DNA of 64,000 bases, from the IMG/VR virus record IMGVR_UViG_3300031707_002715, positions 62,452-126,451 of that record, one strand, 5' to 3'. Source of the stretch: a virus. The translations under genes were made by a program, and so were the position numbers. The notes beneath the pieces are model-generated. The model did no database searches, was not told the origin of the DNA, and saw only the letters and a list, made by a program, of their open reading frames with translations. Below, one piece after another: positions 57,707 through 59,233 of the stretch. The first letter of the stretch is position 1. Every line of letters begins with the position of its first letter.

Positions 57707-57802
57707 ATGAAAACTTCCATCAAACACACGAGTAATAATACGAGTAATTGCACGTGTAGTTTTTGCTTTAATAGCAAAAACGAACTGGTGGAGTTTGCAT
57801 AG
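57707..57802 (+). CDS. Attenuator leader peptide MKTSIKHTSNNTSNCTCSFCFNSKNELVEFA
   Basis: AGAAAG RBS-like site; 16 consecutive codons cognate to downstream tRNAs; TAG stop just before terminator. Confidence 0.8.
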   Translation: MKTSIKHTSNNTSNCTCSFCFNSKNELVEFA

Positions 57803-57863
57803 ATAGATAACTCAAAATCTTTTACAAAAAAGCTCCACTGGCGAAAGTCAATGGAGCTTTTTT
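57711..57863 (+). promoter_or_regulatory. Transcription attenuator (1:2, 2:3 antiterminator, 3:4 terminator)
   Basis: 57711-57722 pairs with 57786-57796; 57785-57796 pairs with 57830-57841; AAGCTCCA/TGGAGCTT terminator stem followed by T-tract. Confidence 0.8.
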
Positions 57864-57990
57864 ATTGGGATGAAGACAATCTAAAGTATTACGAGTCACA
57901 TGTAAAGATTTATATCATAACACAGAGACAGTATATGATAGTATCAAAGACATTTTAAGTAATTCACAAAACTGTGAAATAAAGATAGAT

Positions 57991-58248
57991 TTGTTTACTA
58001 AAGCACAGGCTAGACGGTTACAATTATTAGCAGAATTTGAAGAAAACCGACGTCGATTAAAAATTGAAAAACAGCAAGCGAAGAAGTTAGATCGACAAAT
58101 TATAATTACACAACGAACTAATGACATTTTGCATAGTGATTTTACAAAGCGCGGTACAATTGAAAATCTTAGTAATAAATGGGGAGTTTCACATACACGA
58201 GTTAGACGATTTATAAATGAACATAAAGATTTGATTGAGCCGCTTTAG
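57991..58248 (+). CDS. Hypothetical protein with C-terminal HTH-like segment; start uncertain, possibly an endonuclease relic
   Basis: LSNKWGVSHTRVRRFI; frame is open upstream to 57874 (KVLRVTCKDLYHN). Confidence 0.4.
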   Translation: MFTKAQARRLQLLAEFEENRRRLKIEKQQAKKLDRQIIITQRTNDILHSDFTKRGTIENLSNKWGVSHTRVRRFINEHKDLIEPL

Positions 58249-58312
58249 CTGAACGGTCCAGCGCAGGTTTGAAGCACCTGAGTATCCAGTTCAATTCTGG
58301 GAGGCGGCACCA
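58239..58312 (+). tRNA. tRNA-Phe(GAA)
   Basis: GCCGCTT/AGGCGGC acceptor, CAGGT-TTGAAGC-ACCTG, TTCAATT T loop, encoded CCA. Confidence 0.85.
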
Positions 58313-58431
58313 TTTTTTTAAGGAGCATACTTTGCGAATATTTTTGTGTGCGTGTGATCTTTACAGTTTTTTTGGATGTGCTGTTCAAACTTTTGTTCTT
58401 GATCTTGATGAATGAAGTTCTTTGAAATTAC

Positions 58432-58695
58432 TGGCAAGTAGTTCAATTTGGCAGAACACCTGGCTGTGAATAATAACGCAGCTCTAAATGGAAACATTTA
58501 GATGAACACGCCGCTAAGTCGGGGAAACCTAAAGAGCAATCCATGGCAATCCCGAGCAAGGAAGATAAAAATCTTCTATGCGTAGAGACTTTACACGGCG
58601 CACCTGAAATGGTGAAGAGAAAGTCCACGCTATATGGAAACATATAGATAAGTGTAACCAGGTAGTTGGGGGTTCAAGTCCCTCCTTGCCAGCCA
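58432..58695 (+). tRNA. tRNA-Asn(GTT) split by a group I intron (exons 58432-58467, 58655-58695)
   Basis: TGGCAAG/CTTGCCA acceptor, G discriminator + CCA; spliced loop CT-GT^T-AA inside CCTGG/CCAGG. Confidence 0.85.
58468..58654 (+). ncRNA. Group I intron (IC3-like), 187 nt, no ORF
   Basis: P1 CTGT/GCAG with U.G at 5' splice site; P3 CGCCG/CGGCG; GTAGAGACT...AAAGTCC P7; terminal G. Confidence 0.88.
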
Positions 58696-58766
58696 TTCCA
58701 GAAAGGAGCTCATAATGACAGCCAGTATCATGCACCAGTGAGTGGTGCTAACAAAAAGGAGTCATT

Positions 58767-59003
58767 ATGTCTCATCCTGTGAACAAGAGAGAGCGTTTTC
58801 TTGTCGGAGTTAAAAAGAGTAAAAAACGCGTTAGTCGTTTTTATTCTTATTTGACTAAAATTCAACATCCTGATTGGGTTGAAAAATCAGCACAACGTCG
58901 TAGGAATTGTACTAAGACTTGTTCATGCGCAGGTTGTGGTAATCCGAGAAAATATTTTAATGAAGAGACGATACAAGAAAAAAGATGGAAGATAGCCGGA
59001 TAA
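58767..59003 (+). CDS. Small basic protein with CSC.GCGNPRK motif
   Basis: AAGGAG RBS; CSCAGCGNPRKYFNE.TIQEKR. Confidence 0.7.
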   Translation: MSHPVNKRERFLVGVKKSKKRVSRFYSYLTKIQHPDWVEKSAQRRRNCTKTCSCAGCGNPRKYFNEETIQEKRWKIAG

Positions 59004-59076
59004 CGGTTAGCCGGGACTGTTTGCTACACAGTTGCTCAGTGGTACTGAGTTGGGAGTTCAACTCTCTCATCTTCCG
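58987..59076 (+). tRNA. tRNA-Ser(GCT)
   Basis: GGAAGAT/ATCTTCC acceptor, ACTGT-TTGCTAC-ACAGT, long variable arm, G73; no encoded CCA. Confidence 0.85.
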
Positions 59077-59083
59077 CTGTTTT

Positions 59084-59154
59084 GACGGCGTAGCTAAGTG
59101 GTAAAGCACTGGTCTGCAAAACCAGCATCAGCAGTTCAAATCTGCTCGTCGTCT
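59084..59154 (+). tRNA. tRNA-Cys(GCA)
   Basis: GACGGCG/CGTCGTC acceptor, CTGGT-CTGCAAA-ACCAG, U73; no encoded CCA. Confidence 0.9.
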
Positions 59155-59160
59155 ATTTTT

Positions 59161-59233
59161 GCTGGCGTATTTCAATTGGTAGAAAGCCAAAATCGTAATT
59201 TGGCAGTTTGAAGTTCGAATCTTCTCGCCAGCT
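59161..59233 (+). tRNA. tRNA-Thr(CGT)
   Basis: GCTGGCG/CGCCAGC acceptor, CCAAA-ATCGTAA-TTTGG, TTCGAAT T loop; no encoded CCA. Confidence 0.85.

What the first reader, a model, noticed from the sequence alone, without database searches (positions are those of the whole stretch)
57707..59233. tRNA-sensing attenuator: leader codons match the anticodons of the downstream tRNA array
Seen: leader codons 8-23 (57728-57775) are ACG AGT AAT AAT ACG AGT AAT TGC ACG TGT AGT TTT TGC TTT AAT AGC. All 16 are read by the next five tRNA genes: Thr-CGU, Ser-GCU, Asn-GUU, Cys-GCA, Phe-GAA, which together cover only 9 of 64 codons. The match is isoacceptor-specific (Thr only ACG, Ser only AGY). The RNA has mutually exclusive pairings: 1:2 (57711-22 with 57786-96), a 12-bp 2:3 antiterminator (57785-96 with 57830-41) and a 3:4 terminator with T-tract. 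Known: trp/his/thr/pheST attenuators use ribosome stalling this way, and host anticodon nucleases deplete tRNAs during infection. Inference: the phage monitors several host tRNAs at once and transcribes replacements only when one fails. I know of no description of such a multiplexed tRNA-integrity sensor controlling tRNA genes.
Basis: partly seen in the sequence, partly recalled or inferred. Interest (0 to 1): 0.95.

Follow-up and report, generated by a model that had tools for sequence, protein, structure and literature searches.

The report
Codon-matched leader attenuator before phage tRNAs
A 31-codon mini-gene wired to a switchable transcription stop sits in front of five phage tRNA genes and is written in exactly the codons those tRNAs read, so the phage probably makes these tRNAs only when ribosomes read those codons slowly, a trp-operon-style control I could not find described for tRNA genes.

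Summary
ORF 57707-57802 has 16 consecutive codons (57728-57775) drawn only from the 9 codons read by the next five tRNAs: Phe-GAA, Asn-GUU (split by a group I intron), Ser-GCU, Cys-GCA and Thr-CGU. The next-longest such run in six frames of the 126-kb record is 7 codons.

The ORF lies in a 1:2 / 2:3 / 3:4 RNA switch that ends in an intrinsic terminator. Four diverged relatives keep four things:
- the ORF
- the codon set, with a changed peptide order
- all three pairings
- the stop codon just behind segment 2

In the relatives the terminator lies 12-45 nt before the first tRNA. A relative with no Thr-CGU tRNA in its contig has no ACG codon in its leader.

Unrelated leaders in front of other tRNA blocks mirror their own blocks. 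This holds in loci fetched through a neighbouring protein, in two kin genomes and in phage phiCbK. Permutation tests gave 0 of 20000 and 1 of 720.

Best reading: a ribosome-mediated attenuator that gauges how fast the block's own codons are decoded.

Caveats: no expression data. This copy has a poor ribosome-binding site, and 374 nt with a weak promoter-like site separate its terminator from tRNA-Phe.

Six literature searches found no description. This scan had noted the same class before on other DNA.

The parts
57363..57392 (+). Best sigma-70-like promoter match upstream of the unit (TTGATA-18-TATAAT, 11 of 12)
   Evidence: This is a consensus match only. In relatives L033 and L002 all + strand promoter-like sites also lie upstream of the leader.
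57408..57701 (+). Two tandem repeat units. The second wraps tRNA-Gln(UUG) at 57590-57661. They lie between the promoter-like site and the leader, and they replace the Shine-Dalgarno region seen in L033 and L002.
   Evidence: Repeat families D1 and D2; tRNA-Gln. No Gln codon occurs in the leader run. Similar units precede the leaders of L006 and L027.
57707..57802 (+). Leader ORF, 31 codons plus TAG
   Evidence: Homologous ORFs of 31, 27, 30 and 29 codons occur in L033, L002, L006 and L027.
57706..57722 (+). Segment 1 (codons 1-6). It pairs with segment 2 and sequesters the AUG.
   Evidence: MFE folds. The 1:2 duplex is -15.1 kcal/mol.
57728..57775 (+). Sensor run: 16 codons, all read by the five downstream tRNAs. 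It lies in hairpins P2 (57726-57757) and P3 (57759-57781).
   Evidence: hairpins. P3 shows compensatory changes in L002 and L033.
57785..57803 (+). Segment 2 (last codons and stop). It pairs either with segment 1 or with the 5' arm of the terminator.
   Evidence: The 2:3 duplex is -17.6 kcal/mol. It is the best partner of the terminator arm in the 150 nt upstream, and 0 of 500 shuffles reach it. A ribosome with A-site codon 27 or later leaves 0 of 12 pairs.
57800..57810 (+). TAGATAGATAA: one stop codon in each of the three frames, directly behind the leader
   Evidence: Read. Identical in L002 and L033.
57826..57863 (+). Intrinsic terminator (segments 3 and 4) with A-tract, 12+4 bp stem and T-run 57858-57863
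   Evidence: Inverted repeat I2; folds. The 3:4 duplex is -19.5 kcal/mol.
57991..58248 (+). 85-aa ORF with a TTG start. It looks like the C-terminal remnant of a longer phage protein, inserted between terminator and tRNA-Phe in this genome only.
   Evidence: phrog_16521, E 4.4e-8, matching profile positions 110-166 of 178. Its homologue in L002 lies behind tRNA-Phe.
58239..58312 (+). tRNA-Phe(GAA)
58432..58695 (+). tRNA-Asn(GUU) interrupted by a 187-nt group I intron (58468-58654)
   Evidence: An intron-less Asn-GTT sits at this place in L002.
58987..59077 (+). tRNA-Ser(GCU)
59084..59154 (+). tRNA-Cys(GCA)
59161..59233 (+). tRNA-Thr(CGU)

Best explanation
This is a ribosome-mediated (leader-peptide) transcription attenuator placed in front of a block of phage tRNA genes.

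Proposed mechanism:
1. RNA polymerase starting upstream transcribes a 31-codon leader.
2. A ribosome translates the leader while the RNA is being made.
3. The middle 16 codons are the codons read by the five tRNAs behind the terminator: Thr-CGU, Ser-GCU, Asn-GUU, Cys-GCA and Phe-GAA.
4. If these codons are decoded quickly, the ribosome reaches the last codons and the stop. There it covers segment 2, so segment 3 pairs with segment 4. The terminator forms and the tRNA genes are not transcribed.
5. If any of these codons is decoded slowly, the ribosome lags. Segment 2 stays free and pairs with segment 3 (the antiterminator). Polymerase then reads on into the tRNA genes.

The element would so match tRNA output to decoding demand for exactly the tRNAs it controls.

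Shown here: the anatomy, its conservation, and the co-variation of leader codons with tRNA sets.

Inferred: translation of the leader, the direction of the switch, and what lowers tRNA supply in nature.
For: 1. Match. All 16 of 16 codons are in the 9-codon set. The next-longest run in the record is 7, and Markov nulls give 6-8. Ser is only AGY and Thr only ACG in the run, against 33% and 21.5% in the record's long ORFs.

2. Conserved ORF with a changing peptide. Homologous leaders occur in L033 (18 of 18 codons in set), L002 (15 of 16), L006 (15 of 16) and L027 (best stretch 8 of 8). Pairwise run-peptide identity is only 3-12 of 16-18 residues. Length differences are whole codons. In these best stretches 18 of 18 Ser codons are AGY and 7 of 7 Thr codons are ACG. 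Outside them Thr and Ser mostly use other codons.

3. Ribosome-binding site. All 4 relatives have AAAGGAA before the ATG, at -5.6 kcal/mol. The median for 76 long ORFs is -3.3.

4. Switch.
- All 5 homologues fold as P1 (1:2) + P2 + P3 + terminator.
- The 2:3 duplex is -16.3 to -21.8 kcal/mol in 5 of 5. It is the best upstream partner of the terminator arm in 5 of 5. Only 0-4 of 500 shuffles reach it.
- GGAG/CUCC changes to GGGG/CCCC in segments 2, 3 and 4 together in L006 and L027.
- 15 of 46 consensus pairs show compensatory changes.

5. Geometry. With a ribosome footprint masked, the antiterminator keeps 12 of 12 pairs for A-site codons 2-22 and 10 pairs at codon 23, the last sensor codon. 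It keeps 0 pairs from codon 27 to the stop. L033 behaves the same way.

6. Same transcription unit. In L033, L006 and L027 the first tRNA starts about 27-45 nt behind the T-run. In L033 and L002 no + strand promoter-like site lies behind the leader ATG.

7. Co-variation.
- L027's 13.9-kb contig has Phe, Asn, Ser-GCU and Cys tRNAs but no Thr-CGU, and its leader has no ACG.
- tRNA-Gln, which lies upstream of the leader, has no codon in the run.
- Across 29 automatically called terminator-to-tRNA modules, leaders match their own tRNA sets better than any of 20000 permutations (sum 11.34; null 7.03 +/- 0.61, maximum 9.45).
- For six leaders (none like the window's, though three share 16-22-nt matches with each other, apparently in their terminator stems), the true pairing is the single best of 720.
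- L019's first leader holds a cognate codon for 16 of 16 anticodon species of its block.
- A second, unrelated leader heads the second tRNA block of the kin genome G001.
- phiCbK shows the same layout at two annotated terminators.
Against: 1. Poor ribosome-binding site in this copy: -0.4 kcal/mol, at the level of random 18-mers. The start codon is paired in P1.

2. In this window 374 nt separate the T-run from tRNA-Phe. They hold a 9-of-12 promoter-like site at 57963-57991. The region has 13 such sites in all, against 9.2 +/- 3.5 in shuffles. These tRNAs could therefore have their own promoter.

3. Relatives' runs are not perfect: TAC in L002, AAA in L006, and TCC, ACA and TGG in L027.

4. Co-variation is not strict. 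In G002 the second leader keeps TGG and GGC, although ARAGORN found no Trp or Gly-GCC tRNA in the 19.5 kb examined. A third ORF plus terminator, before a Met/Thr/Ile block, shows no clear match.

5. In the automatic test many single modules rank poorly. The own score is 0.00 in 2 of 29. For the window, 3 of 28 foreign sets score at least as high as its own. Homologous modules are not independent.

6. Covariation specific to the 2:3 helix is thin. Only 1 of 12 pairs has a change on both sides. 53 of 60 cells are paired, and 26 of 500 shuffles reach that.

7. In the nascent RNA without segment 4, the MFE already prefers 2:3 over 1:2 even with no ribosome. The 'off' state without translation therefore rests on folding kinetics, which I did not model.

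8. Segment 1 lies 5' of the sensor codons. A single ribosome stalled late in the run does not mask it, which differs from trp.
Confidence: 0.68

Rival explanations
1. The family is a real attenuator, but this window's copy is decaying or bypassed. The insertion of the repeat units removed its ribosome-binding site. The inserted 374 nt behind the terminator supplies a promoter. Here the tRNAs would be made constitutively.
For: SD energy is -0.4 here against -5.6 kcal/mol in 4 of 4 relatives. The D2 repeat runs up to 57701, 6 nt before the ATG. A promoter-like site lies at 57963-57991. The 85-aa ORF remnant sits elsewhere in L002.
Against: The ORF is intact and its run is perfect, 16 of 16, which is as good as or better than the relatives' runs. 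All three pairings are intact. The 9-of-12 promoter match is at chance level for the region. L006 and L027 also carry repeat units upstream and still have a good SD.
Confidence: 0.15
2. The ORF encodes a small Cys/Ser/Thr/Asn/Phe-rich peptide with a function of its own and its own terminator. The resemblance to the tRNA set reflects general co-adaptation of phage codon use and phage tRNAs.
For: The ORF, SD and stop are conserved. The composition is kept in all five homologues.
Against: The order of residues is not kept: 3-12 of 16-18 residues are identical between pairs. Codon choice is isoacceptor-specific. Unrelated leaders with quite different compositions each mirror their own tRNA block, down to one codon per anticodon species. 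The set makes up only 15.7% of codons in the record's long ORFs.
Confidence: 0.07
3. The region is a structured non-coding RNA, a third stable RNA of the cluster behind the two repeat units. It has its own terminator, and the reading frame is incidental.
For: Very stable fold: z -7.6, with 0 of 200 shuffles as stable. The three-way junction P1/P2/P3 is kept with compensatory changes. The SD is poor and the AUG is paired in this copy.
Against: The frame is open from ATG to a stop at the same place behind segment 2 in 5 of 5 homologues, despite indels. Four of 5 have a good SD. The run of 16 set codons is in frame and far beyond chance. Compensatory changes in P3 keep the codons inside the set. 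No Rfam family matches the leader at E up to 1.
Confidence: 0.05

Closest known systems
Multivalent leader-peptide attenuators of enterobacterial amino-acid operons (thr leader: Thr and Ile codons; ilvGMEDA leader: Ile, Val and Leu codons), and the single-amino-acid trpL, hisL, leuL and pheL (recalled textbook knowledge; PMC3082878 on pheL seen only in the listing)
   Same: A short translated leader; a run of regulatory codons; 1:2, 2:3 and 3:4 alternative pairings; an intrinsic terminator; a stop codon placed so that a finishing ribosome covers segment 2; more than one amino acid sensed.
   Different: The controlled genes are tRNA genes, not biosynthetic enzymes. The codons are chosen by isoacceptor: five tRNA species here and up to 16 in a relative's block. 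Segment 1 lies upstream of the sensor codons, and the sensor codons sit in two extra hairpins. There is no sequence or Rfam-model similarity.
pheST-type attenuation of an aminoacyl-tRNA synthetase operon by a Phe-codon leader
   Same: A translation-apparatus gene is controlled through the decoding speed of its own cognate codons.
   Different: One amino acid only, a protein gene, and a bacterial chromosome.
T-box riboswitches
   Same: They sense tRNA status and act through a terminator/antiterminator choice in front of translation-related genes.
   Different: A T-box binds one uncharged tRNA directly through a specifier codon, without a ribosome. Here there is a translated frame of 16 codons, and no T-box match in Rfam at E up to 1.
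Long tRNA gene arrays of cyanobacteria that are silent and induced under translational stress (PMC8421152: abstract start, term search of the text; PMC10272220, TrcR repressor: abstract start only)
   Same: An accessory tRNA array is expressed when translation is impaired.
   Different: Control there is ascribed to a protein repressor. The 2021 text holds 0 occurrences of 'attenuat', 'leader' or 'terminator'. It is a bacterial plasmid, not a phage.

Membership tests
Ribosome-mediated (leader-peptide) transcription attenuator | Short ORF with start codon and ribosome-binding site upstream of the controlled genes | tested here: met
   An ORF of 27-31 codons in 5 of 5 homologues. A good SD in 4 of 5. 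It is poor (-0.4 kcal/mol) in the window's own copy.
Ribosome-mediated (leader-peptide) transcription attenuator | Run of regulatory codons tied to the function of the controlled genes | tested here: met
   16 of 16 codons are read by the five downstream tRNAs. The next-longest run in the record is 7. The set is kept in relatives.
Ribosome-mediated (leader-peptide) transcription attenuator | Intrinsic terminator between leader and controlled genes | tested here: met
   Stem 57826-57863 with a T-run; 3:4 duplex -19.5 kcal/mol; present in 5 of 5. The simple consensus scan did not list it, probably because of the mismatch inside the stem.
Ribosome-mediated (leader-peptide) transcription attenuator | Antiterminator (2:3) mutually exclusive with the terminator, and an anti-antiterminator (1:2) | tested here: met
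   2:3 is -16.3 to -21.8 and 1:2 is -11.3 to -24.2 kcal/mol in 5 of 5. The 2:3 helix has 88% of cells paired, against 35-57% for slid controls, but only 1 of 12 pairs is compensatory.
Ribosome-mediated (leader-peptide) transcription attenuator | Stop codon placed so that a ribosome finishing the leader masks segment 2 | tested here: met
   Footprint masking: 0 of 12 2:3 pairs remain from A-site codon 27 to the stop, in the window and in L033.
Ribosome-mediated (leader-peptide) transcription attenuator | Controlled genes lie in the same transcript, with no promoter behind the terminator | tested here: inconclusive
   Relatives: the first tRNA lies 12-45 nt behind a T-run, and no promoter-like site follows the leader. 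Window: a 374-nt gap with a 9-of-12 site.
Ribosome-mediated (leader-peptide) transcription attenuator | Read-through rises when the cognate codons are decoded slowly | not testable with these tools
   Needs a reporter, Term-seq or Ribo-seq.
Rfam amino-acid operon leader families (Thr, His, Leu, Trp and Phe leaders; names recalled) | Match to the family covariance model | tested here: not met
   cmscan of 54000-64000 at E up to 1 listed only tRNAs and two sub-threshold hits: psRNA14 on the terminator (31.3 bits, gathering 60) and Plastid-ycf2.
T-box riboswitch | Match to the T-box model (specifier loop and T-box sequence) | tested here: not met
   No such match at E up to 1.

The most novel reading that the evidence does not exclude
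Phages with tRNA arrays carry a general and so far undescribed control layer. Each tRNA block is gated by a translated 'test strip' that holds at least one codon for nearly every tRNA species of that block. This is a multiplex gauge of decoding capacity. It turns tRNA transcription on when any one of those tRNAs runs short, whether through host shut-off, tRNA-cleaving defences or the phage's own codon demand. It turns transcription off again once the phage tRNAs have accumulated. In this lineage the leader's TAG stop may even report on the conserved amber-suppressor tRNA(CUA) further downstream. TAG and a suppressor occur together in 3 of 3 leaders; the one TAA leader whose contig could be searched (L027) has no suppressor there; the three TAG leaders share ancestry, so this is weak.
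Probability: 0.55. Interest if true: 0.9.

Novelty: new variant of a known kind. Interest (0 to 1): 0.85.

Why it matters
Phage tRNA genes are usually treated as a constitutive supplement for codon usage, or as replacements for tRNAs lost to host shut-off or defence. How they are regulated is largely unknown.

A leader-peptide attenuator written in the block's own codons would give four things:
- a feedback mechanism that sets tRNA supply by demand
- an extension of the classic attenuation logic from amino-acid supply to the tRNA pool, with isoacceptor resolution and up to 16 tRNA species read by one leader
- a sequence-only way to predict which tRNAs form one regulatory unit, and which 'CAU' tRNAs read ATA
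- compact natural sensors of codon-specific decoding speed that could be reused as reporters

The same layout is present in the cultured phage phiCbK, so the idea can be tested at the bench.

Tried and rejected
- Close relatives in the 50,697 phage records. blastn of 57400-59500 hit only tRNA-Cys-like stretches. tblastn with three neighbouring proteins gave nothing useful.
- Single-protein search for related loci with the 85-aa and 305-aa neighbours found no relative.
- The exact 18-nt repeat motif hit one unrelated coding stretch, L001, with no tRNA. The tRNA-Thr anticodon-arm pattern hit nothing in viral contigs.
- The 463-aa neighbour (59511-60902) has 1485 homologues, many bacterial. I judged it a poor marker of phage kinship and did not use it.
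- nhmmer with the five-leader alignment found no further homologue among 111 loci. The best other hit was L080, E 2.9.
- Expression: no RNA holder is listed for this stretch. Laying the two DNA runs showed only the window's own sequence, plus a co-occurring L002-like variant in X1 and tRNA- and intron-sized fragments in X2. It gave no information on transcripts.
- Rhizobium phage RHph_TM30, the nearest cultured phage carrying the 78-aa protein, had no leader-plus-terminator module by my scan. The scan's T-tract rule may miss terminators there.
- Reading the leader's TAG through to the in-frame ORF 57851-57958: the extended frame is not kept in L033 or L002 (read), so I dropped it.
- Reading the split tRNA as Thr-UGU (ARAGORN): rejected on the group I P1 U.G rule and the intron-less Asn homologue.
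- I also recalled that U1-A72 with G73 is typical of bacterial tRNA-Asn. That comes from no call.
- Supplements of papers were not opened.
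Full report
WHAT IS THERE

The window is the last 64 kb of a 126,451-base virus record, rated 27% complete. At 57707-57802 lies a 31-codon ORF, MKTSIKHTSNNTSNCTCSFCFNSKNELVEFA, ending in TAG.

Behind it ARAGORN finds these tRNAs:
- tRNA-Phe(GAA) 58239-58312
- tRNA-Ser(GCU) 58987-59077
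- tRNA-Cys(GCA) 59084-59154
- tRNA-Thr(CGU) 59161-59233

With introns allowed, ARAGORN adds a split tRNA at 58432-58695 and calls it Thr(UGU). The splice point is ambiguous by tRNA structure alone. Rfam finds a group I intron there (58.6 bits, gathering score 50, E 1.3e-14). Its P1 alignment pairs exon base U58467 with a G, the U.G pair that marks the 5' splice site. The intron is then 58468-58654 and ends in G. The spliced loop is CUGUUAA and the anticodon is GUU (Asn). The relative L002 has an intron-less tRNA-Asn(GTT) at the same place in the array. With G34 reading C and U, and C34 reading G, they cover 9 codons.

MORE THAN CHANCE

The 9 codons make up 18.2% of all triplets in the record. 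The run of 16 is unique. The next-longest run in any of six frames is 7, and 30 order-2 Markov genomes gave longest runs of 6-8.

The choice is isoacceptor-specific. In the run, 4 of 4 Ser codons are AGY and 3 of 3 Thr codons are ACG. In 76 long ORFs of the record AGY is 33% of Ser codons and ACG 21.5% of Thr codons. Outside the run the same ORF uses ACT and TCC. tRNA-Gln(UUG), which lies upstream of the leader, has no codon in the run.

THE RNA SWITCH

The stretch 57662-57880 folds far better than shuffles: -63.3 kcal/mol, z -7.6, 0 of 200 shuffles as stable. The fold has these parts:
- a closing helix P1 (57706-57722 with 57786-57803), which includes the AUG
- two hairpins, P2 (57726-57757) and P3 (57759-57781), which carry the sensor codons
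- a terminator (57826-57863) with a T-run at 57858-57863

Segment 2 (57785-57796) can instead pair with the 5' arm of the terminator (57830-57841). That duplex has 12 pairs at -17.6 kcal/mol. For comparison, 1:2 is -15.1 and 3:4 is -19.5 kcal/mol. Segment 2 is the best partner of that arm in the 150 nt upstream, and 0 of 500 dinucleotide shuffles of segment 2 reach its energy.

I masked a ribosome footprint (P site -14 to +15) and folded the RNA made before segment 4 exists. The antiterminator keeps 12 of 12 pairs for A-site codons 2-22 and 10 pairs at codon 23, the last sensor codon. It then falls to 0 from codon 27 to the stop. The sensor run therefore ends where a waiting ribosome starts to cover segment 2. 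This is the geometry of classical attenuators.

Directly behind the leader, TAGATAGATAA supplies a stop in each frame.

RELATIVES

Neither the phage collection nor single neighbouring proteins gave relatives. The 78-aa ORF inside the array (58767-59003) did. It has 8 homologues. An alignment of them (A1) fetched 30 loci from metagenome contigs and 80 of 235 from viral contigs.

Four distinct loci hold a homologue of the leader: L033, L002 (identical in L003, L004 and L032), L006 and L027. nhmmer found no others.

All four keep the following.
- An ATG ORF of 31, 27, 30 or 29 codons.
- A stop directly behind segment 2.
- An AAAGGAA ribosome-binding site, at -5.6 kcal/mol. The median for the record's long ORFs is -3.3.
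- The codon set: 18 of 18 in L033, 15 of 16 in L002 (one TAC), 15 of 16 in L006 (one AAA). In L027 the best stretch is 8 of 8, with TCC, ACA and TGG before it.

The peptide order is not kept. Between pairs, only 3-12 of 16-18 residues are identical. In the best stretches 18 of 18 Ser codons are AGY and 7 of 7 Thr codons are ACG.

All five sequences fold as P1 + P2 + P3 + terminator. The RNAalifold consensus has 46 pairs, 15 of them with compensatory changes. The changes in P3 keep the codons inside the set.

The 2:3 duplex is -16.3 to -21.8 kcal/mol in 5 of 5. In L006 and L027, GGAG/CUCC becomes GGGG/CCCC in segments 2, 3 and 4 together. On the alignment, 53 of 60 cells of the 2:3 helix pair (88%). 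With the partner slid by 1-3 columns, 35-57% pair. Only 1 of 12 pairs has changes on both sides, and 26 of 500 shuffles reach the observed pairing. The covariation specific to this helix is therefore thin.

ONE TRANSCRIPTION UNIT?

In L033 the T-run ends 27 nt before tRNA-Phe. In L006 and L027 the gap is about 30-45 nt. L002 has a truncated tRNA-Phe half and a second copy of the terminator tail before its tRNA-Phe. In L033 and L002 every + strand promoter-like site lies upstream of the leader ATG.

The window differs in two ways. First, two repeat units, one wrapping tRNA-Gln, lie between the best promoter match (57363-57392, 11 of 12) and the leader. They replace the SD region seen in L033 and L002, leaving -0.4 kcal/mol. 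Second, 374 nt separate the terminator from tRNA-Phe. These hold the remnant of a longer phage protein (phrog_16521) and a 9-of-12 promoter-like site at 57963-57991. That match is at chance level for the region. The attenuator may thus work less well here, or be bypassed. I rate that at 0.15.

CO-VARIATION OF LEADER AND tRNA SET

Inside the family:
- L027's 13.9-kb contig has Phe, Asn, Ser-GCU and Cys tRNAs but no Thr-CGU, and its leader has no ACG.
- The three genomes with Thr-CGU (the window, L002, L033) have 2-3 ACG codons each.

Beyond the family, I ran a fixed scan. It looked for an ATG ORF of 12-60 codons ending within 70 nt of a hairpin plus T-tract, with a tRNA downstream. It found unrelated leaders before other tRNA blocks in loci that had been fetched through the 78-aa protein, not through any leader feature. 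Examples:
- L019 9526-9612 reads GTA CGC CGG GTC AAA CGT GAC CGT ata GAT CGC TGG GTT AAG CGT GAC CGG. It precedes Lys-UUU, Lys-CUU, Arg-ACG, Val-GAC, Arg-CCG, Asp, Trp, a CAU tRNA and Val-UAC.
- L019 3919-4029 holds a cognate codon for 16 of 16 anticodon species of its block, including four Leu and four Ser isoacceptors.

I then tested 29 automatically called modules, keeping the poor ones in. The summed own-set match is 11.34. Permuted sets give 7.03 +/- 0.61 with a maximum of 9.45, so 0 of 20000 permutations reach it. Many single modules rank poorly, 2 of 29 score 0.00, and homologous modules are not independent.

I also took six leaders. None shows blastn similarity to the window's leader. 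Three of them share short matches of 16-22 nt with each other, apparently in their terminator stems. The true leader-to-set pairing is the single best of 720.

The kin records G001 and G002 hold 29 and 25 tRNA matches. Their second block is headed by another, unrelated leader plus terminator. Its last 17 codons are 15 in-set in G001.

Against strict co-variation:
- The G002 copy keeps TGG and GGC, though I found no Trp or Gly-GCC tRNA in the 19.5 kb examined.
- A third ORF plus terminator, before a Met/Thr/Ile block, shows no clear match.

In the cultured phage phiCbK (NC_019405), two annotated rho-independent terminators stand before tRNA blocks:
- One is preceded by gp335, rich in in-set Ser, Leu, Pro, Lys and Ala codons, before a Pro, Lys, Leu, Ala, Ser block.
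- The other is preceded by a frame reading ...QFVRQIQVV..., before a Phe, Val, Ile, Gln block.
- The ORFs before the Glu/Asp block show no match.

HOW IT MOST LIKELY WORKS

A ribosome translates the leader while it is being made. If the sensor codons are read quickly, the ribosome reaches the last codons and covers segment 2. Then 3:4 forms and transcription stops. If any sensor codon is read slowly, segment 2 stays free and pairs with segment 3, and polymerase reads into the tRNA genes.

Shown: the anatomy, its conservation and the co-variation.

Inferred: translation, the direction of the switch, and the natural trigger.

Two points differ from trp. Segment 1 lies upstream of the sensor codons, so a ribosome stalled late in the run does not mask it. 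Also, the MFE of the nascent RNA prefers 2:3 even with no ribosome. The untranslated 'off' state must therefore rest on folding order, which I did not model.

Whether the gauge reports loss of host tRNAs, attack by anticodon nucleases, or simply feedback from the phage's own tRNAs cannot be told from sequence.

WHAT IS KNOWN

Rfam has no family for the leader, and there is no T-box match.

Six full-text searches found no paper describing a leader-peptide attenuator of tRNA genes. The nearest work in print that I saw concerns a silent tRNA array of Anabaena that is induced under translational stress (PMC8421152). Its text holds 0 occurrences of 'attenuat', 'leader' or 'terminator'. A later paper ascribes control of that array to a repressor (PMC10272220, abstract start only). 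Subscription journals are largely outside the library, and I opened no supplements.

This scan had already noted the same class on other DNA, several times, including phiCbK-like phages. I used those notes as leads only. I checked the phiCbK claim and the Anabaena paper myself.

VERDICT

It is a new variant of a known kind of control. Confidence in the mechanism is 0.68 and interest is 0.85.

Noticed in passing
58432-58695: tRNA-Asn(GUU) is interrupted in its anticodon loop by a 187-nt group I intron (58468-58654; Rfam 58.6 bits). L033 has an intron of about 200 nt at the same place. L002 has the intron-less gene.
   Followed up: partly
62492-62565: An amber-suppressor tRNA (anticodon CUA) is conserved in the window, L002 and L033. 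TAG is the stop of 8 of 76 long ORFs. The leader stop is TAG in exactly these three genomes and TAA in L006 and L027. L027's contig holds no CUA tRNA; L006's 1.2-kb contig is too short to tell.
   Followed up: partly
60893-60966: A tRNA-like gene (56 bits to the tRNA model) with an 8-nt anticodon loop (CUCUUGGA). It overlaps the end of the 463-aa ORF 59511-60902. The kin genome G001 has two such genes side by side (L117, about 9035 and 9110).
   Followed up: no
59511-60902: This 463-aa protein has no Pfam or PHROG match but 1485 homologues at E up to 0.001. The 120 listed are 46-64% identical, and those with a source name include bacteria such as Myxococcus, Microcystis and Chitinimonas. It looks like a widely moving gene of unknown function.
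   Followed up: no
57408-57701; L006 1-200; L027 7640-7950: Tandem units in which a conserved 5' motif (..TGGTGCT..GATGAAAG) and a 3' motif (CTTCATTCGAATTTCATC.ATTCAA) flank a tRNA or tRNA-like body. Another reader noted them as Y-RNA-like. In the relatives L006 and L027 they precede the leader as well.
   Followed up: partly
58767-59003: A 78-aa protein (MSHP...VKKSKKR...CSC..CGNPRK) of unknown function is embedded in the tRNA arrays of many phages. There are 235 tblastn relatives in IMG/VR, and the loci that hold tRNAs mostly carry 5-37 of them.
   Followed up: partly
57800-57810: TAGATAGATAA gives a stop in all three frames right behind the leader and is identical in L002 and L033. It would also stop ribosomes that slipped frame at hungry codons.
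   Followed up: no
L002 8395-8460: A truncated 5' half of tRNA-Phe, followed by a second copy of the terminator tail (TTTTTTATTGGGATGAA), lies between the terminator and the intact tRNA-Phe. It looks like a recombination scar. The same form co-occurs at lower depth in run X1.
   Followed up: no
62887-63999; 28989-30038; 42123-43172: A TnpB/OrfB_IS605-type gene is cut by the contig end. Two similar transposase genes (phrog_506) lie elsewhere in the window.
   Followed up: no
L019 9526-9612; L009 9699-9788: Leaders that lack an internal ATG but contain ATA codons stand before blocks with a 'Met-CAU' tRNA. That tRNA may be tRNA-Ile2 reading ATA, so the leader could help to assign CAU tRNAs.
   Followed up: no
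L112 (Rhizobium phage RHph_TM30) 23056-24129: A TROVE-domain (Ro-like) protein is annotated directly behind the 19-tRNA array of this cultured phage. My scan found no leader module there.
   Followed up: partly
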